Virus record (IMG/VR): IMGVR_UViG_3300034072_000446
Direction: 5' to 3' (one strand)
From: an uncultured virus (IMG/VR IMGVR_UViG_3300034072_000446)
Taxonomy: Duplodnaviria > Heunggongvirae > Uroviricota > Caudoviricetes
DNA length: 20,000 bases
In this document: in pieces, positions 14,613 through 20,000 of the stretch
Position numbering within the stretch: position 1 is the first letter of the stretch
How the letters are laid out: every line of letters begins with the position of its first letter
Made by a program: the position numbers and the translations under genes
Notes under the pieces: model-generated
The model's input: only the letters and a program-made list of their open reading frames with translations
Databases searched by the model: none
Told to the model about the DNA's origin: nothing

Positions 14613-15533
14613 TCAGGCCGCGCGGAAAACCACATCGTTGCGCAGATCCATTCGGCGGCCCGGCTGCACGTCGAGCACGTCTGTGCGCGCCGCATAGGCC
14701 ACCTGCGAACCGTCGAGGAACAAGCCATAGCCGTGCAAATTCACGGGACCGGTCGCCGGGCCCACCACGACGAATTCGGGCAGGCGCAGCGCAAGGCCCA
14801 CCGCCGTCATGCCCCATGCCGGTCCATCGATCATGCGCCGCTCAAACGGCAGCTCGCTCTTCCCGTCAGAGAATACCAGCTCCACCGTCTCGGCCATGCT
14901 GATCAGCTCCAGCAGATCTTCCGGCCTGGGCTGATCATCCAACGGCCCGCACCTGCGCGGCTTCGATCCCGCTTTGCCCTTGCGCACCTTCGGCTCCGCG
15001 TCGATCTTGGCCACCTTCGCCGCAAGTGCATCGCGCTCGGCCGTCAGTGCGGCAATCTCGGTTTCCTGCTGCCCGACTTTGCTTGTGGCCTGGTCCAAAG
15101 CGCCTTCGATCTCGGTGAAGTTGTGGGCAGCAGCCTCGAGCTGGGGCGCAATCGCATGAACCAGAGTGCGAAACAGCGCATCTTTGAACTGCTGCGCCGG
15201 CGGCAATTCATCGAAGGGTACGATGCACGGATGGGTTTTCTTCTCGGGATCCTTGACCTCGCCATAGACCCAGCCATCTGCGACCTTTTCAGCCATCCAG
15301 CTGTCATGGCTGGCGCTGTCCCCCGCTTCAGGATTTGCCATGTGGAAGCGCACGCCATTGATTGCGGAAGAACGCTGCCAATCCGGCGCATCAAACCATG
15401 ACGGCTGACTGTCATCGCCAAGCGAACGGCAGTAAGCTGCATTCGCCGCATGGCAAACGCTGGCGATCAGACCAACGAACTCGGGGCTTAAAGCTTCCGC
15501 TTTTGCGGAACCTTGTGGACTTGTATCTGTCAT
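14613..15533 (-). CDS. RyR-domain protein fused to a coiled coil and an unassigned beta-rich C-terminal domain (306 aa)
   Basis: SHDSWMAEKVADGWVYGEVKDPEKKTHPCIVPFDELPPAQQFKDALF is the RyR repeat signature (PF02026-like). Likely start is the ATG at 15533 with a GAGGAGG RBS. Confidence 0.85.
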   Translation of the reverse strand: MTDTSPQGSAKAEALSPEFVGLIASVCHAANAAYCRSLGDDSQPSWFDAPDWQRSSAINGVRFHMANPEAGDSASHDSWMAEKVADGWVYGEVKDPEKKTHPCIVPFDELPPAQQFKDALFRTLVHAIAPQLEAAAHNFTEIEGALDQATSKVGQQETEIAALTAERDALAAKVAKIDAEPKVRKGKAGSKPRRCGPLDDQPRPEDLLELISMAETVELVFSDGKSELPFERRMIDGPAWGMTAVGLALRLPEFVVVGPATGPVNLHGYGLFLDGSQVAYAARTDVLDVQPGRRMDLRNDVVFRAA

Positions 15534-15544
15534 CGCACGCCTCC

Positions 15545-15805
15545 TCAACTGCCGACTACCAATCGGCCGATTTGCCCGGCACTCGGCTCGCCCGATGCCC
15601 CGGAAATGATGTCCGCTGCAGCGCCGCGTCGGCGCGCCAGCAGCAAATCACGCTCGGCTTGTGCCCGCGCGTCGTCGCGTGTCGGCATTGCCATTGATGT
15701 GGCCGCCTTTTTCTTGCCGAGCAGGGCCTTCGCACCCAGCCCAAGCAACCCGCCACCGAGAAGGAATTTGCCGATCCCGCCAATGGCCTTCGCAACAAAA
15801 CTCAT
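15545..15805 (-). CDS. Small virion-associated protein (T7 gp6.7/7.3-like position), 86 aa
   Basis: ATG at 15805 with a GAGGAG RBS just after the TerL stop. Gly/hydrophobic N-terminus and RRRGAAADIISG motif are typical of the small gene preceding podovirus portals. Confidence 0.65.
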   Translation of the reverse strand: MSFVAKAIGGIGKFLLGGGLLGLGAKALLGKKKAATSMAMPTRDDARAQAERDLLLARRRGAAADIISGASGEPSAGQIGRLVVGS

Positions 15806-15806
15806 G

Positions 15807-17366
15807 TCACCGCACTCCTCTGAAAACATCAAACTCACTGTCATTGCGCACGCGCGTGCCTTCCGGCCGCCGTTGCTTGCCGCGCAGATCTGAAATGACG
15901 TGTTCCCCCTCGAGCGCGGCGTATTGTTCGGCGTCGGCCACGTGGGTGTAGATCGTGTCCGCGATCTCTAGGTGACCGCGCTTCTCGCCGGTCGAAAGTT
16001 CCTCTTTCTGGTAGCGATAGCCGCCCGAATGCGCCTTGATCAGGTGGCGGCACTGCGGGTCCACCATGTAGCCATGGCGCTCCGATTGCGCTTTCCAGAT
16101 CGCTTCGTTGCGTAGTGCCGCCCGGTTGCTTTTCGCCTTGTGAATTTTGCCCAGACCAAGCGCGGCCTGGCACGCAAGGATCCAGTCATGCTCGTTGTCC
16201 TCGCGGTCGCCGGCGGCAAATGCAGCAGGGTCCGCCACAAACCGGATGTCTTCCTTTTGAATATTCGGGTAGCGCTCGATGATCGCGTTGCGCAGCTTTC
16301 GGCCGAACGCGCTGGGGCCAACCTTCAGCAGCTTCTTGCGATCGTCGGAAAGGTTGACCACCTCGAACAGCGTGCGGATGTGCCCGTAATCGTCGCGCTG
16401 CAGGCCCACGGCCGCCGCGAACAATCCCTGGTCAATGCCGACAACCAGCTTGCGGCGCGGGTTGTAGATGCACTGCCCAACGTGCGCCGAATGGTTGAAC
16501 TCGCCGTTCACCGGCTTGCCGAACATCATGGCCACCGGCTTGTTGTGCACCATGCGGTCGACATATCCCGGCTTGTGCTTGTTCGCCGCCACCTGCAGCA
16601 CGTAGTAACCGCGCCCGCCCGGCAGGTTATGGATGTTTTCGGCATCCGGTTCCATGCCACCCGGCTGCACAAATGTTTCCACCAGCGGCCGCCCGCCCAA
16701 CACCTGCTCTAGCTCGCCCTTGTCCTGCTCGGTCAAGCCCTCGATCTCTCGATCCATCGCCAGTACGTAGGCGTGGTTCTCGATATCCGGCATGTTCATC
16801 GAAATGATGATTTGCGGATCGACCACCAGCGATGGGTCTAGGTCCGAAAAGCGCCCGACACGGCCTGTCAGGTACGGCACCAGGTCCGAAGGCTGAAGGT
16901 CGGCCTCGTCCACGATCACCGCGTTGACTTCCCAGCCACGACAGGCCTCTTCCACGCTCTGATCGCCGATCGCGCGGAACTCGAATTCCACATCCAGCAC
17001 GTCGATCGGGCGGCCGTCGGCATCGCGGCGCAGGACCTTGCGAAAGTTGTGCGTGAACGGGGCCGACCACAGGAATTTGCCTTCCTCCTCCGGCACGATG
17101 TTGAACCAGCTTTTCAGCGTGGTTGATTTCAGGCTCGGATAGCTTTCACGGATCACGCCAATGCGCGCCTTGCGCCACGTGATGCCGCTTTCGTCCTTCA
17201 CCCCGCCCTGCATCGCGGCCACGCGCAGGCCCTTCTGCAGTGCCGCCATCGTTTTGCCCGATCCCACCGGGCCGATGATGTTGCAGATGAATGCACGGCT
17301 GCGCATGAAGGCATCGGCAACCGGCCCCGGAGAGCGCAGGCGGCGCGGCTTGGATGGCATTTTCAC
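15807..17366 (-). CDS. terL: Terminase large subunit, 519 aa
   Basis: Walker A GPVGSGKT, Walker B VIVDEAD, RNase H-like VVGIDQG, ADPA and C-terminal HVADAEQY. Confidence 0.93.
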   Translation of the reverse strand: MKMPSKPRRLRSPGPVADAFMRSRAFICNIIGPVGSGKTMAALQKGLRVAAMQGGVKDESGITWRKARIGVIRESYPSLKSTTLKSWFNIVPEEEGKFLWSAPFTHNFRKVLRRDADGRPIDVLDVEFEFRAIGDQSVEEACRGWEVNAVIVDEADLQPSDLVPYLTGRVGRFSDLDPSLVVDPQIIISMNMPDIENHAYVLAMDREIEGLTEQDKGELEQVLGGRPLVETFVQPGGMEPDAENIHNLPGGRGYYVLQVAANKHKPGYVDRMVHNKPVAMMFGKPVNGEFNHSAHVGQCIYNPRRKLVVGIDQGLFAAAVGLQRDDYGHIRTLFEVVNLSDDRKKLLKVGPSAFGRKLRNAIIERYPNIQKEDIRFVADPAAFAAGDREDNEHDWILACQAALGLGKIHKAKSNRAALRNEAIWKAQSERHGYMVDPQCRHLIKAHSGGYRYQKEELSTGEKRGHLEIADTIYTHVADAEQYAALEGEHVISDLRGKQRRPEGTRVRNDSEFDVFRGVR

Positions 17367-17932
17367 GGTTCGCGCTCCTCGTCATCATCGATCGGCGCAA
17401 ATTCAGCCTCGAGGATATCCGCCATTTCGTCGCTGGTGTGTGTGACGCCCTCGATGATCAGGTCAGACACGCCCGCGAAGTTCATTTCCACCTTCACCGG
17501 CATCTTGCCCTCGATGTAGGGCAGCAGCGATTCCGCACAGCGCACGCGCAGCTGCTCGGCATCGCCGATCGTCATACGGCGCTTGGGCGGATCCATCGCG
17601 GCCGAACGCTCCACCAGGACTTCCGCTGGCGTGCTCTGGATCTGCATCAGCGTCACCGCCGGATGCTGCCCGAAACCGAGGATGAACTTGCGAAAATCAT
17701 CCGTCCGGCGGTTGCGAACACCCTTGGGGCGGCCGCGCCTGCGCGCTTCCTGCAGCACCGCCACCGGCCCTGCCTCGCGCCCCAACGTTTCGCGAGCCAT
17801 GACGATGTCTTCGGGATCCGGCACGCCCAGCAAATCCAGCTGCTCGGCCTCGTGGCTGGCCGCACGTTCAACCAGCGCCTTTGCATCGCGGATCATTTCG
17901 TCAGCAGGGTTTTTCGCGGGGTCAGTTGACAC
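17363..17932 (-). CDS. Probable terminase small subunit, 189 aa
   Basis: Directly upstream of TerL with a GTGA overlap. Basic RRRGRPKGVRNRRT DNA-binding motif, RCAESLLPYIEGK motif and acidic tail. GTG start with a GGGGTGA RBS. Confidence 0.75.
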   Translation of the reverse strand: MSTDPAKNPADEMIRDAKALVERAASHEAEQLDLLGVPDPEDIVMARETLGREAGPVAVLQEARRRGRPKGVRNRRTDDFRKFILGFGQHPAVTLMQIQSTPAEVLVERSAAMDPPKRRMTIGDAEQLRVRCAESLLPYIEGKMPVKVEMNFAGVSDLIIEGVTHTSDEMADILEAEFAPIDDDEEREP

Positions 17933-18602
17933 GAATCACCCCCGCGCTACCGTCACAAAATCGACGCGGCATTCCCGCCAGACCCGCACCCCGACCCAGC
18001 ACCCGCTTTGCGGGTTGGCGGACTCCCAACCCACACCCCGACCCGATCCGCAGCCTCCCACTTTGGCGGGCTCCGGCGAGGCCGCGCAGAGCGCCGCTAT
18101 GGATCAGGGCCGGATAGCCGGTCCAAATCTGGCAAACCGCGTGCGCCAAGGTGCAAGGGGACGGGCGCGCGCACGATGGGGGCGAGGGGGGTGCCGCCGG
18201 GCGATCGATGCCCCCCCCTGCCGATCTGGTCGACCAGGGCGACGACGATGGGCCTACCAGAAGCCCGCTAGGCTTACGCTGCTGGTCCGAAAACCACGCA
18301 AAACCAAGGCTTTGCGTGCACCCTTCCAACATCGGCTTTCCAACAAGCCCGGATCGACCCGCGCAAACCCGCAGAAATCCGCCATTCTCGCACCGCGCCG
18401 AGATCCGCACCGATCCGGCCGAGCTCGAGGCCGACCGCCAGCCCGCGCGATCCGCGCCAGGGCGAAAATCGCCGAAAGTTTCGCCGACGCGCCCCCGCTT
18501 CACACCGCTGGAGCGACCATCGAGCGACCCGCGCCGATATCCGGCCGCCAGAATATTCGCCTGGACGACTGCGCACGCCCGATCCGCAGCCCGATCCGAC
18601 GC

Positions 18603-18850
18603 CGGTTGCAGGCGCAACCGCGCTGCAACCGCTCTGCAACCACTAACCTTATGATCCATATGGATTAATTCAGACGGTTGCAAAGTTGCAGGTTTTCCGA
18701 AGCCCCCAGATACGCGCGCGCCTACGCGTACGTACGCGCGCACATGACGCGAGGCTCCAGCCTGCAACCGTGCAACCGCCACGGAAAGCGCTGCAAAATC
18801 AATGCTTTGAGAGTTGCACCACGGTTGCAGATGGGTTGCGCCTGCAACCG
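18603..18850. repeat. 248-bp dyad-symmetric, iteron-like element (two inverted 90-bp arms and a 68-bp core); candidate replication origin or DNA-processing site
   Basis: Perfect 17-bp terminal inverted repeat CGGTTGCAGGCGCAACC (18603-18619 / 18834-18850). Six GCAAC boxes per arm at mirrored positions, IHF-like sites at 18644-18656 and 18797-18809, and TACGCGTA (18723-18730) on the axis. Confidence 0.85.
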
Positions 18851-19206
18851 CTACCCCCGACCCATCGGGACCGCCAAACGTGGCAACCAACTTACTCGCA
18901 TCGCAACGGGCCGGGGTCAAACGGAAAGCGAGACCGAGGGTGCGAATCGACGCGCCAGCCATCGCTTTCGCATCGGGCCGGGGAGTAGATGAGGCGCGGC
19001 CGCGCACCGCTCCGGCCCCGGCTTCGCCAGCGCCTCCGCTGCGGCCGCACGTCGGCGCAAACCGCATCGCCTGGCCAAGTCTCGCGCCCTGCGTAAGACG
19101 CTGAAAGTGCAGGCGATCGCGCACCGCTTCGACGTGCTGGCGCACGTCAAAGCTGCGATCGCGAGCAGGCGTAAACCACACCGATATCGCCCCTTCTAAA
19201 CGCGCG

Positions 19207-19246
19207 TTAAAAAACCGCTTGACAGGCAATTTAGCTTCCGTATTTT
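19207..19246 (+). promoter_or_regulatory. Sigma70-like promoter for ardC
   Basis: Perfect TTGACA (19219-19224), 16-bp spacer and TATTTT (19241-19246), preceded by the A-tract TTAAAAAA. AGGAAAGGA RBS before the ATG at 19305. Confidence 0.7.
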
Positions 19247-19304
19247 CGGAACCATTGAAACCCCAGGCACGGGCCGGGGTCTTGGTCAGGAAAGGACCGC
19301 CATC

Positions 19305-20000
19305 ATGGCAAAGCTCGACACTTACGAAGCCGTCACCAACGCGATCATTGCCAAGCTCGAGGCTGGCACGAAGCCCTGGGCTCCCGATTGGATCTCCGGC
19401 GGCGTTGGCGGTGGCCTCGTCATGCCGCGCCGCCACAACGGCGAATTCTATCGCGGCATCAACGTGTTGCTGTTGTGGGCCACGGCCGAGGAACGCGGCT
19501 ATCGCGCCCCGACATGGATGACCTTCAAGCAGGCGCTCGAACTTGGCGGCGCGGTCCGCAAGGGCGAAAAGAGCACGGTTATCGTGTTCTTCAAGAAGCT
19601 GACCATCACCGAACAGAACGAGGCGGGCGAAGAACAGGACAAGCAAATCCCGATGCTGCGCACCTATTGCGTGTTCAACGTCGAACAAATCGACGGGCTC
19701 CCTGCGCAGTACTACCCGGCCGAGGTCGAGCTGGTCGGCGGCAAGGACCGCGACGAAGCGGCCGAGGCTGCGCTGCGCAGCTCCGGCGCGGATATCCGCG
19801 AAGGCGGCGACAAGGCGTTCTATGTGCCCTCGCTCGATTACGTCCAGATGCCCACCTTCGATCGCTTCAAGAGCACGAGCGGATTCCTCGCCACCCTCGC
19901 GCACGAACTGTGCCATTGGACCGGCCACGCTTCGCGCCTCGATCGCTCGATGAAAGGCGCATTCGGCTCCAAGGACTACGCGGCCGAGGAACTGGTGGCA
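19305..20000 (+). CDS. ardC: ArdC-family antirestriction / ssDNA-binding protein (DUF1738 N-domain plus zincin-like metallopeptidase domain); runs off the right edge and is absent from the ORF track
   Basis: MAKLDTYEAVTNAIIAKLEAGTKPW...YRGINVLLLW...WMTFKQALELGGAVRKGEKS...VFNVEQIDGL...AFYVPSLDYVQMP...LAHELCHWTGH...YAAEELVA. HExxH lies at 19902-19916; 232 open codons. Confidence 0.93.
   Translation, partial: MAKLDTYEAVTNAIIAKLEAGTKPWAPDWISGGVGGGLVMPRRHNGEFYRGINVLLLWATAEERGYRAPTWMTFKQALELGGAVRKGEKSTVIVFFKKLTITEQNEAGEEQDKQIPMLRTYCVFNVEQIDGLPAQYYPAEVELVGGKDRDEAAEAALRSSGADIREGGDKAFYVPSLDYVQMPTFDRFKSTSGFLATLAHELCHWTGHASRLDRSMKGAFGSKDYAAEELVA

What the first reader, a model, noticed from the sequence alone, without database searches (positions are those of the whole stretch)
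18603..18850. Mirror-symmetric 248-bp element: 12 GCAAC boxes, paired IHF-like sites and a palindromic axis
Seen: the left arm (18603-18692) and the reverse complement of the right arm (18761-18850) align without gaps. Left: CGGTTGCAGGCGCAACC gcg CTGCAACCG ctc TGCAAC cact AA cctta TGAT ... CGGTTGCA aa GTTGCAGG. Right (rc): CGGTTGCAGGCGCAACC cat CTGCAACCG tgg TGCAAC tctc AA agcat TGAT ... CGGTTGCA cg GTTGCAGG. Boxes and spacing are conserved while the spacers have diverged, which points to selection for protein binding rather than a recent duplication or an RNA hairpin. Three boxes per arm repeat at 11-bp (helical) phase. AATCAATGCTTTG (18797-18809) matches the IHF consensus WATCAANNNNTTR perfectly, and its exact mirror (18644-18656) matches 7 of 9 defined positions. 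The core is largely alternating purine/pyrimidine, with TACGCGTA exactly on the axis (18726.5). Known: phage P4-type origins use short direct and inverted iterons bound by a primase-helicase. Inference: a bidirectional origin, with IHF folding each arm between facing boxes. Alternatives are a terminase-loading site or a recombination site. No cognate replication gene lies in the window.
Basis: partly seen in the sequence, partly recalled or inferred. Interest (0 to 1): 0.85.

Follow-up and report, generated by a model that had tools for sequence, protein, structure and literature searches.

The report
Twelve-iteron replication origin of a prophage
A perfectly mirror-symmetric set of twelve short DNA boxes in a prophage is most likely the site where the phage's own ring helicase starts DNA replication, and its relatives keep the layout while changing the box sequence.

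Summary
Twelve GCAAC boxes at 18605-18848 form six mirror pairs that share one axis, 18726.5. The element lies in a 1.37-kb gap between terS (- strand) and an ArdC-like gene (+ strand). The host is a temperate prophage of Sphingomonadales with T7-like virion genes.

Related phages keep the same layout, often with spacings 9-11-11-41-8-79-8-41-11-11-9. Their boxes differ: TGCAAC, CAGAAC, TGGAAC, GGGAAC, GGTAAC, CCTAAC and others.

In relatives, just beyond the window's end, lie a Toprim primase gene and a ~650-aa helicase gene. The helicase has a D5/SaPI-Rep-like fold.

Of 1,564 alignment columns in four proteins, one separates CAGAAC phages from [T/C]G[C/G]AAC phages without error. It sits in the helicase's C-terminal beta-hairpin, with T/N against R/W.

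Best reading, about 0.7: a pri-rep-ori origin like that of SaPIs, with six iterons per arm. Three features differ from SaPIs:
- The centre is GC-rich alternating purine-pyrimidine, not AT-rich.
- IHF-like sites lie inside the arms.
- The element's position follows terS, not the helicase gene.

A terminase (pac) site is the main rival. Nothing here is shown experimentally.

The parts
18603..18850 (.). Whole dyad element: 12 iteron boxes, two AT-richer inter-cluster gaps and a GC-rich centre; proposed origin of replication
   Evidence: The same architecture is found in relatives.
18603..18642 (.). Outer left cluster: boxes at 18605(-), 18614(+), 18625(+), 18636(+); spacing 9, 11, 11
   Evidence: The boxes are conserved in L024 and L025 while the spacers between them differ.
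18644..18656 (-). Weak IHF-like site (GATCATAAGGTTA, 2 mismatches to WATCAANNNNTTR) in the left inter-cluster gap
   Evidence: L025 has a perfect match nearby in the same gap.
18675..18692 (.). Inner left pair: boxes at 18677(-) and 18685(-), spacing 8
   Evidence: inverted repeat I4.
18693..18760 (.). Centre: GC-rich, alternating purine-pyrimidine runs at 18710-18721 and 18723-18746, TACGCGTA on the axis
   Evidence: The alternating run is a conserved property: median 18 nt, and above the locus's own 99th percentile in 50 of 59 loci.
18761..18778 (.). Inner right pair: boxes at 18764(+) and 18772(+)
18797..18809 (+). IHF-consensus match AATCAATGCTTTG (0 mismatches)
   Evidence: L025 keeps it as TATCAATGATTTG.
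18811..18850 (.). Outer right cluster: boxes at 18813(-), 18824(-), 18835(-), 18844(+)
18537..18558 (-). Conserved motif GAATATTCTGGCGGCCGGATAT just after the element on the terS side. In distant relatives the same motif carries the terS start codon. Possible late promoter or translation start, or a terminase target.
17933..18536 (-). Conserved non-coding spacer between the motif and terS; ends in a terminator-like hairpin at 17980..17967
17363..17932 (-). Small terminase candidate (189 aa): its position before TerL, and an invariant RGRPKGxRNKRT motif
   Evidence: The only family match is weak (phrog_15261).
15807..17366 (-). Large terminase candidate (519 aa, Walker A). Remote relatives in named phages are annotated as TerL.
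19305..20000 (+). ArdC-like anti-restriction gene (ArdcN + zincin), cut off by the window end. It is an insert specific to this lineage, between the helicase gene and the element.

Best explanation
The 248-bp element is most likely the replication origin of a temperate prophage family of Sphingomonadales and related bacteria. These phages have T7-like virion genes but no DNA polymerase gene was seen in the six genomes mapped.

Replication module. It consists of a Toprim primase gene, then the gene of a ~650-aa self-loading SF3-type (D5/SaPI-Rep-like) helicase, then the origin. This is the pri-rep-ori order known from staphylococcal pathogenicity islands.

Proposed steps, with their basis:
- The helicase's C-terminal domain reads the 5-7-bp boxes through a beta-hairpin. 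This is inferred from covariation.
- Each arm offers six boxes: four in an outer cluster, three of them 11 bp apart, and two in an inner pair.
- Between the outer cluster and the inner pair lies an AT-richer gap of about 30-40 bp with an IHF-like site. Bending there could bring the six boxes of an arm around one hexamer. This is inferred.
- The two mirror arms would then place two hexamers facing each other across the roughly 70-bp centre, where strands open and bidirectional replication starts. This too is inferred.

Shown here: the anatomy, its conservation with changing boxes, the gene neighbourhood, the helicase fold and the covariation.

Not shown: binding, bending, melting or replication.
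For: (1) Anatomy. There are 12 boxes in six mirror pairs on one axis.

(2) Conservation with changing boxes. Of 48 TerL-relative loci with at least 1700 bp upstream, 44 have a box cluster of 8-17 copies (mostly 10-14), 1.4-2.4 kb upstream of terL. Pattern and spacing are identical or within 1 bp in loci with AGAAC, GCAAC and GGAAC boxes. Of 78 helicase-centred loci, 59 could be given a box class. The helicase identity reaches down to about 30%.

(3) A switch in register. L065 and L097 differ at all 12 boxes, CAGAACC against TGCAACC, while the flanks and centre stay alignable.

(4) Neighbourhood. The gene order is integrase ... HTH ... Toprim primase - helicase - [optional insert] - element - terS - terL in 6 of 6 mapped genomes. 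All 5 complete proviruses searched hold the helicase.

(5) Helicase fold. The AF2 model has mean pLDDT 84. Foldseek matches include SCCmec Cch, NrS-1, poxvirus D5/E5, ASFV PrimPol, PriRep1 with dsDNA (7pds) and SaPI5 primase-helicase (7ola), at E 4e-8 to 5e-6. A Walker A motif GGRGTGKST and a Walker B motif FDE are present.

(6) Covariation.
- Per-column AMI with box class peaks in the helicase: 0.74, 0.59 and 0.59 at three hairpin columns. The maxima elsewhere are TerL 0.34, terS 0.44 and primase 0.51.
- These columns are T621, A628 and R630 of the L024 protein. They lie on strands 617-624 and 627-635 of the model.
- Of 1,564 columns in four proteins, only R630's column separates 13 CAGAAC phages (T 12, N 1) from 22 [T/C]G[C/G]AAC phages (R 21, W 1) with zero errors. 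The best columns elsewhere have 3 errors (terS), 2 (TerL) and 1 (primase).
- The same hairpin signatures recur with the same box in separate clades of the helicase tree: KST-CAGAAC twice, and DKR-TGGAAC in three places.

(7) Copy number. There is one cluster per genome and one copy in a 4.1-Mb host genome.

(8) Match to SaPI origins. Passages read in PMC9371898 describe 6-12 penta- or hexanucleotide iterons downstream of rep. Half lie on each side of a central region, in opposite orientations. They are read by the Rep C-terminal domain, and two hexamers are thought to load.
Against: (a) Position. The element follows the packaging module. It lies 1.4-2.5 kb upstream of terL in all loci, and directly before the terS start in distant relatives. 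Its distance from the helicase stop codon ranges from 0.05 to 7.4 kb.

(b) Centre. The centre is not AT-rich: mean GC is 0.61. Described SaPI origins have an AT-rich centre.

(c) Weak statistics. Phylogenetically independent contrasts are few and not significant. They gave 2 of 2, 2 of 2 and 3.5-4 of 4 in the same direction, then 3 same and 1 tie of 4. The link between box position 3 and residue 621 is not supported: 2.1 pairs go the same way and 1.4 the other.

(d) Incomplete code. In one deep clade R630 stays R while the boxes vary. L171 and L176 share CCTAAC but have different hairpin residues. The two residues are therefore not a full code.

(e) L065 and L097. The hairpin core differs at 6 of 12 residues, against a 26% difference over the whole protein. 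My own count gives only a modest excess. terS is also strongly diverged between the two phages: about 52% identity to the L065-type terS.

(f) Fold of the C-terminal domain. It has no clear fold match.

(g) Inference from relatives. The helicase and primase genes are read from L024 and L025, not from the window.
Confidence: 0.7

Rival explanations
1. The element is a terminase recognition site (pac or cos). terS would bind the box clusters on both sides, IHF would bend the arms, and TerL would cut in the GC-rich centre. This resembles the hexamer-flanked P1 pac site, SPP1 pacL-pacC-pacR or lambda cosB with its IHF site (all three recalled, not looked up).
For: The element always lies just upstream of terS. 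It is 1.4-2.5 kb before terL, and in distant relatives its last box is only tens of bases from the terS start. Inserts fall between the helicase gene and the element, not between the element and terS. A symmetric GC-rich centre would suit a symmetric nuclease cut. terS carries a conserved DNA-binding-like RGRPKG motif.
Against: Boxes change between relatives, but no terS column follows them. The maximum AMI is 0.44 and 0.32, and the best CAGAAC/TG-class separator has 3 errors. The RGRPKGxRNKRT motif is invariant across box classes. That fits a conserved target better, such as the GAATAAAATAGG motif. Full mirror symmetry does not suit directional packaging. The boxes contain no GATC or GANTC. 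The one error-free covarying column is in the helicase.
Confidence: 0.12
2. The helicase or another phage protein binds the boxes, but the element acts as a regulatory hub and not as the start site of replication. It would sit at the early/late boundary and switch or insulate the late operon, terS onwards.
For: The element lies at the boundary between the replication and packaging modules. Directly downstream is a conserved promoter-like or translation-start motif and, in this lineage, a 600-bp non-coding leader ending in a terminator-like hairpin.
Against: Twelve sites in strict dyad order over 250 bp, with six per arm, exceed what operators usually need. No transcription-factor gene was found to covary, though only four proteins were tested. 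No second iteron cluster that could serve as the true origin exists in six genomes.
Confidence: 0.1
3. The element is a recombination or resolution site (attP, protelomerase target) or a mobile repeat (MITE).
For: It is a long dyad with an alternating CG/TA core on the axis, which resembles protelomerase targets (recalled).
Against: The prophage is integrated. The integrase lies at the far end next to host genes, and four relatives are classed as proviruses. The element is internal, so it is not the attachment site. It is single-copy in the host genome and in each phage genome. I ran no HMM search for a protelomerase gene.
Confidence: 0.02

Closest known systems
SaPI pri-rep-ori replication module of Staphylococcus aureus pathogenicity islands (passages read in PMC9371898)
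   Same: A primase gene lies upstream of the gene for a self-loading SF3-type hexameric helicase-initiator. There are 6-12 penta- or hexanucleotide iterons downstream of rep. Half lie on each side of a central region, in opposite orientations. Specificity resides in the helicase's C-terminal domain, and two hexamers are thought to load. SaPI5 PriRep and PriRep1 are among the fold matches of the helicase here.
   Different: Here the centre is GC-rich alternating purine-pyrimidine, not AT-rich. The AT-richer stretches with IHF-like sites lie inside each arm. The number and spacing of boxes are nearly fixed. Inserts can separate the origin from rep by up to 7.4 kb, and the origin stays next to terS. 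The host element is a complete temperate phage of Alphaproteobacteria, not a satellite. A winged-helix fold for the C-terminal domain is not established.
Satellite phage P4 alpha protein with ori and crr (recalled, not looked up)
   Same: Short boxes occur in direct and inverted orientation. They are bound by the C-terminal domain of a primase-helicase. One site lies near the 3' end of the replication gene.
   Different: P4 fuses primase and helicase and needs two separate sites, ori and crr. Here the primase is a separate gene and each genome has a single cluster.
SV40 large T antigen and papillomavirus E1 origins (recalled)
   Same: SF3 helicases assemble as a double hexamer on inverted pentamer or hexamer boxes arranged around a dyad.
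   Different: Those origins are far smaller, have AT-rich or easily melted flanks, and use no IHF. There is no sequence relationship beyond the SF3 fold class.
Phage P1 pac site and lambda cosB (recalled)
   Same: Clusters of short repeats lie on both sides of a central region. There is an IHF site, and the location is at or next to the small terminase gene.
   Different: Those sites are bound by terminase small subunits, and the P1 boxes carry Dam sites. Here terS shows no covariation with the boxes, and the boxes hold no methylation motif.

Membership tests
SaPI-type pri-rep-ori replicon | Primase gene directly upstream of the helicase-initiator gene | tested here: met
   A DUF7146 + Toprim_3 protein (360 aa) lies upstream of the helicase in G002. 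The ortholog family F14 is present in the 5 other mapped genomes. This is seen in relatives only: the window ends before these genes.
SaPI-type pri-rep-ori replicon | Initiator is an SF3-type ring helicase with Walker A and B motifs | tested here: met
   AF2 model with pLDDT 84. Foldseek E 4e-8 to 5e-6 to Cch, NrS-1, D5/E5, PriRep1 and SaPI5 PriRep. GGRGTGKST and FDE motifs are present. No Pfam hit passes its cutoff.
SaPI-type pri-rep-ori replicon | 6-12 penta- or hexanucleotide iterons, half on each side of a central region, with opposite orientations | tested here: met
   12 boxes, 6 per arm, in mirror order.
SaPI-type pri-rep-ori replicon | AT-rich centre between the iteron halves | tested here: not met
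   Mean GC of the centre is 0.61, against 0.45 in the arm gaps and 0.65 in the loci. The centre holds alternating purine-pyrimidine runs.
SaPI-type pri-rep-ori replicon | Origin immediately downstream of the rep open reading frame | tested here: inconclusive
   The distance is 50-500 bp in many loci but 0.8-3.3 kb in others. It is 5.5-7.4 kb in three further genomes. In the window's lineage an ArdC-like gene lies between them.
SaPI-type pri-rep-ori replicon | C-terminal winged-helix domain of the helicase recognises the iterons | tested here: inconclusive
   Covariation points to a C-terminal beta-hairpin. The domain model (pLDDT 86.6) has no Foldseek match at E <= 0.001. VIA-align gives only Z <= 3.6. 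Those weak rows include ETS, HSF and IRF domains and SaPIbov1 Rep residues 449-558 at Z 2.6.
SaPI-type pri-rep-ori replicon | Helicase binds the origin and drives replication | not testable with these tools
   This needs EMSA or footprinting and a mini-replicon assay.
P4 alpha / ori + crr system | Two separate iteron sites (ori and crr) and a fused primase-helicase | tested here: not met
   There is one cluster per genome in 6 of 6 genomes. Primase and helicase are separate genes. The P4 features themselves are recalled.
Terminase recognition site (P1 pac / lambda cosB type) | Repeats are bound by the small terminase, so they should covary with it | tested here: inconclusive
   No terS column tracks the boxes: AMI is at most 0.44 and the best separator has 3 errors. 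Covariation can miss a binder. Ends of packaged DNA could not be tested, because offered contigs only.
IHF binding site | Match to WATCAANNNNTTR at a conserved place | tested here: met
   The window has 0 and 2 mismatches. Across 59 loci, arm 1 has at most 1 mismatch in 30 and arm 2 in 20. Shuffled arms average 3.0 and 2.7 mismatches. Binding itself was not tested.
MITE / dispersed repeat | Many scattered copies in the genome | tested here: not met
   The only match above noise in G002 is the prophage locus, at E 2.4e-71. All other matches have E >= 0.36.
Protelomerase target (telRL) | Protelomerase gene and a linear plasmid prophage | not tested
   I ran no HMM search for a protelomerase. The prophage is integrated next to host genes and has an integrase, and relatives are classed as proviruses. 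Both argue against this.

The most novel reading that the evidence does not exclude
The fixed six-plus-six layout may be a template for one head-to-head double hexamer of a self-loading SF3 helicase. IHF would wrap each six-box arm around one ring so that all six C-terminal domains are engaged. The conserved alternating purine-pyrimidine (Z-DNA-prone) centre would replace the usual AT-rich unwinding element as a supercoil-sensitive opening site. The origin's invariant place directly before the late/terS control region would couple the start of replication to late transcription or packaging. The family would also offer a natural, readable recognition code between a helicase hairpin and its iterons. 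IMG/VR holds at least 237 relatives, and at least 18 box types have been seen so far.
Probability: 0.25. Interest if true: 0.75.

Novelty: new variant of a known kind. Interest (0 to 1): 0.6.

Why it matters
Origins of self-loading SF3 helicases are known in detail for a few satellites and animal viruses. How a ring helicase counts and uses its iterons remains open. This phage family gives a rigid, countable architecture of 6 + 6 boxes with fixed spacing. It also offers dozens of natural specificity variants and a single helicase residue position that sorts two box classes without error. Iteron recognition, double-hexamer loading and the role of a non-AT centre therefore become directly testable with swaps. 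The result also annotates the origin and replication module of a widespread but unstudied group of alphaproteobacterial prophages.

Tried and rejected
- Exact 17-mer of the outer cluster in IMG/VR: 6 hits, none with a box cluster, so chance.
- blastn of 17900-19400 against GenBank phages: no match.
- Rfam on 17800-19400: nothing below E 0.46 and nothing near the gathering scores.
- Whole genome: not held. The nearest genome, G001, holds only a 1.8-kb contig that stops near window position 18350.
- Whole-protein trees: box-class changes were 12 (TerL), 13 (terS) and 10 (helicase), against about 24, 25 and 21 for shuffled labels. This gives no discrimination. Sliding-window identity gave only weak differences.
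- Independent-pair tests: too few pairs for significance. The link between residue 621 and box base 3 was not supported.
- With 18 box classes and 54 loci, AMI maxima shrink. The helicase reaches 0.45, against 0.32 for terS, 0.31 for TerL and 0.39 for the primase.
- Per-base AMI: base 4 is dominated by three odd lineages and gave a spurious 0.92 in TerL.
- PDB sequence searches with the helicase and the primase: nothing meaningful.
- Fold search with the C-terminal domain: no clear match.
- Cruciform idea: single-strand folding z-scores of the centre were -5.1, -2.1, -1.85, -1.3, -0.1 and 0.0 in six loci, so the potential is not conserved.
- Public runs: all 22 listed are kept as contigs only, so neither ends nor depth can be read. 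Laying 4 runs showed no joints or ends of note at the element. Listed variants inside it are 18632, 18784 and 18816, the last within a box, and 43 further variants were not shown.
- Earlier findings of this scan: none.
- Papers: two searches found nothing on this phage group's origin. For those papers I saw only the search listings and abstract starts.
- Dropped rows:
  - 4 of 48 loci had no credible cluster. L085 and L086 have too little upstream DNA. L075 and L093 gave low-complexity top words. L093's contig later showed a 12-box CGGAAC cluster as L145.
  - 19 of 78 loci got no box class: duplicates, short flanks or low-complexity top words.
  - Near-duplicate loci were removed before the AMI counts.
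  - L130 was left out as a duplicate of L129.

Full report
**Observation.**
- Twelve GCAAC/GTTGC boxes lie at 18605-18848. The six mirror pairs all give the same axis, 18726.5.
- Spacings are 9, 11, 11, 41, 8, 79, 8, 41, 11, 11, 9.
- No other 248-bp stretch of the window holds more than 4 of the window's 74 GCAAC.
- Of the 19 TGCAAC in the window, 10 are in the element.
- The arms align without gaps at 57 of 90 positions. Across the axis, 73 of 124 positions are complementary, against 31.7 +/- 4.9 in shuffles.
- TACGCGTA sits on the axis. The centre has alternating purine-pyrimidine runs of 12 and 24 nt.
- One perfect IHF-consensus match (18797-18809) and one with two mismatches (18644-18656) are present.

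**Setting.** The window is a prophage with a T7-like virion module on the - strand.
- The module holds terS, TerL, a RyR-domain protein, portal (PF12236), scaffold-like protein, capsid (PF19821), tail tubular A and B, and internal virion proteins.
- The element lies in the 1.37-kb gap between terS (17932..17363, -) and an ArdC-like gene (19305 onwards, +).
- Close relatives are in Sphingomonadales. One is a Porphyrobacter MAG contig (L024, TerL 98%). Another is a 299-kb Novosphingobium contig (L025, TerL 90%).
- In the Novosphingobium contig the prophage ends with an integrase next to host genes.
- The element is single-copy in that 4.1-Mb genome. It is therefore neither a dispersed repeat nor the attachment site.

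**The architecture is a family trait, and the box is not.**
- I used TerL and then the helicase as handles in IMG/VR.
- A scan for locally enriched 5-mers found a cluster of 8-17 boxes (mostly 10-14) 1.4-2.4 kb upstream of terL in 44 of 48 loci with enough upstream DNA.
- A box class could be assigned in 59 of 78 helicase-centred loci.
- Orientation pattern and spacing match the window's exactly, or to within 1 bp, in loci whose boxes are AGAACC, GCAAC or TGGAACC.
- Other relatives use GGGAAC, GGTAAC, CCTAAC, TGAAAC, TCCAAC, TACAAC, GGTACC and more.
- Between L065 and L097 all twelve boxes change in register, from CAGAACC to TGCAACC. The flanks and centre still align.
- Between the window and L025, boxes are kept while the spacers and the centre's sequence drift.
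- Two non-box properties are conserved. IHF-like matches lie in the two inter-cluster gaps. An alternating purine-pyrimidine run marks the centre: median 18 nt, above the locus's own 99th percentile in 50 of 59 loci.
- These patterns point to a protein-bound site whose specificity co-evolves with its binder.

**Which protein?**
- Gene maps of six genomes show one order: integrase ... HTH repressor-like ... Toprim primase (DUF7146 + Toprim_3) - a ~650-aa P-loop protein - [optional insert] - element - terS - TerL.
- In the window's lineage the insert is the ArdC-like gene.
- The 650-aa protein has no Pfam family. Its AlphaFold model (pLDDT 84) matches SF3/D5-type replicative helicases. These include SaPI5 PriRep, PriRep1 bound to dsDNA, SCCmec Cch and NrS-1, at E 4e-8 to 5e-6.
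- I scored per-column association with box class in four proteins. In the first set (24-37 loci per protein; 32 for the helicase), the helicase has the three best columns: AMI 0.74, 0.59 and 0.59. All three lie in a 13-column stretch. The maxima elsewhere are 0.34 (TerL), 0.44 (terS) and 0.51 (primase).
- These columns are T621, A628 and R630 of the L024 protein. They sit on the two strands of a C-terminal beta-hairpin, 617-624 and 627-635.
- In the larger set, one column of 1,564 separates the 13 CAGAAC phages (T 12, N 1) from the 22 [T/C]G[C/G]AAC phages (R 21, W 1) without error. It is the R630 column.
- The same hairpin signature recurs with the same box in separate clades of the helicase tree.

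**Limits of that evidence.**
- Whole-protein trees do not discriminate.
- With 18 classes the AMI lead shrinks: 0.45 for the helicase against 0.31-0.39 elsewhere.
- Independent-pair tests all point the same way but have only 2-4 informative pairs.
- The proposed pairing of residue 621 with box base 3 is not supported.
- In one deep clade R630 is constant while the boxes vary. Two CCTAAC phages differ in the hairpin.
- terS is also strongly diverged between L065 and L097.
- The C-terminal domain has no clear fold match. The weak VIA rows include several winged-helix DNA-binding domains and SaPIbov1 Rep, all at Z <= 3.6.

**Mechanism proposed.**
- The closest described system is the SaPI pri-rep-ori module.
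- Passages read in PMC9371898 give its features. The primase gene lies upstream. Rep is a self-loading hexameric helicase-initiator whose C-terminal domain reads penta- or hexanucleotide iterons. Six to twelve iterons lie downstream of rep, half on each side of a central region and in opposite directions. Two hexamers are thought to load.
- The present element fits this on every anatomical point but one: its centre is GC-rich, with mean GC 0.61.
- I therefore read it as the phage's origin. There would be six iterons per arm for one hexamer, an IHF-type bend between the outer four and the inner two, and two hexamers facing each other across the centre.
- The count of six per arm and the bending are inferences.

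**What does not fit.**
- The element's position follows terS. It stays 1.4-2.5 kb upstream of terL, and in distant relatives sits directly before the terS start codon.
- Its distance from the helicase gene ranges from 0.05 to 7.4 kb.
- This keeps a terminase-site reading alive at about 0.12.
- Against that reading, terS does not track the boxes. Its invariant RGRPKGxRNKRT motif suits a conserved target better, such as the GAATAAAATAGG motif next to the element.
- A purely regulatory role gets about 0.1. Recombination, protelomerase or MITE readings get about 0.02.

**Novelty.**
- GenBank phages hold no named close relative. The best hit is an unannotated metagenomic record, with TerL 67% and helicase 44%.
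- Two literature searches found nothing on this group's origin (listings only).
- In kind, iteron origins of self-loading SF3 helicases are known.
- The variant is new in four ways: a fixed 6 + 6 layout, IHF-like sites inside the arms, a Z-DNA-prone centre in place of an AT-rich one, and linkage to the late/terS control region.

Noticed in passing
window 17933-18536 (sense on the - strand): The roughly 600 bp between the element and terS is conserved but non-coding. GC is 0.66-0.70 at all three codon positions, against 0.72/0.42/0.77 in terS. Substitutions against L025 fall 46/48/50 by position, and indels are not multiples of three. The spacer ends in a terminator-like hairpin with a T-run at 17980..17967, just before the terS start. 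It may be a late-operon leader or a small RNA under antitermination control.
   Followed up: partly
window 18537-18558 (- strand); L160, L175, L190 and others: The motif GAATATTCTGGCGGCCGGATAT (GAATAAAATAGGGGGCGGATAT in relatives) follows the element in many loci. A strict pattern found it in 26 of 62 loci, and variants are visible in most of the rest. In distant relatives it runs straight into the terS ATG. The window's lineage has therefore interposed 600 bp between this motif and terS.
   Followed up: partly
window 17363-17932 (-), terS: All aligned terS relatives that reach this stretch share an invariant RGRPKGxRNKRT stretch, which resembles an AT-hook. The N-terminal part varies.
   Followed up: no
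window 19305-20000 (+) and 19219-19246: The ArdC-like anti-restriction gene (ArdcN + zincin peptidase) is oriented against its neighbours and is absent at this place in the five other complete relatives mapped. It therefore looks like an inserted cargo gene. A sigma-70-like promoter (TTGACA-16-TATTTT) precedes it.
   Followed up: partly
window 18901-18916 and 18968-18983: Two copies of a CGGGCCGGGG-containing motif lie on the ArdC side of the element (read on the other strand: CCCCGGCCCGTTG). The motif is conserved just before the element in L063, L065, L067 and L097. Its function is unknown.
   Followed up: no
window 14613-15548 (-): A 311-aa protein with a RyR domain (PF02026) is encoded between TerL and the portal gene.
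   Followed up: no
L037 13370-13783 (G002 prophage, outside the window): The related Novosphingobium prophage encodes a protein with an Acb2/Tad1 hairpin domain, a family of anti-defence nucleotide sponges. It also encodes a GapR-like DNA-binding protein near its integrase end.
   Followed up: no
L127 (IMG/VR contig), element about 1.06 kb after the helicase gene: One relative uses the palindromic box GGTACC, so every box reads the same on both strands. It was counted 19 times. This is a natural test of whether box orientation matters.
   Followed up: no
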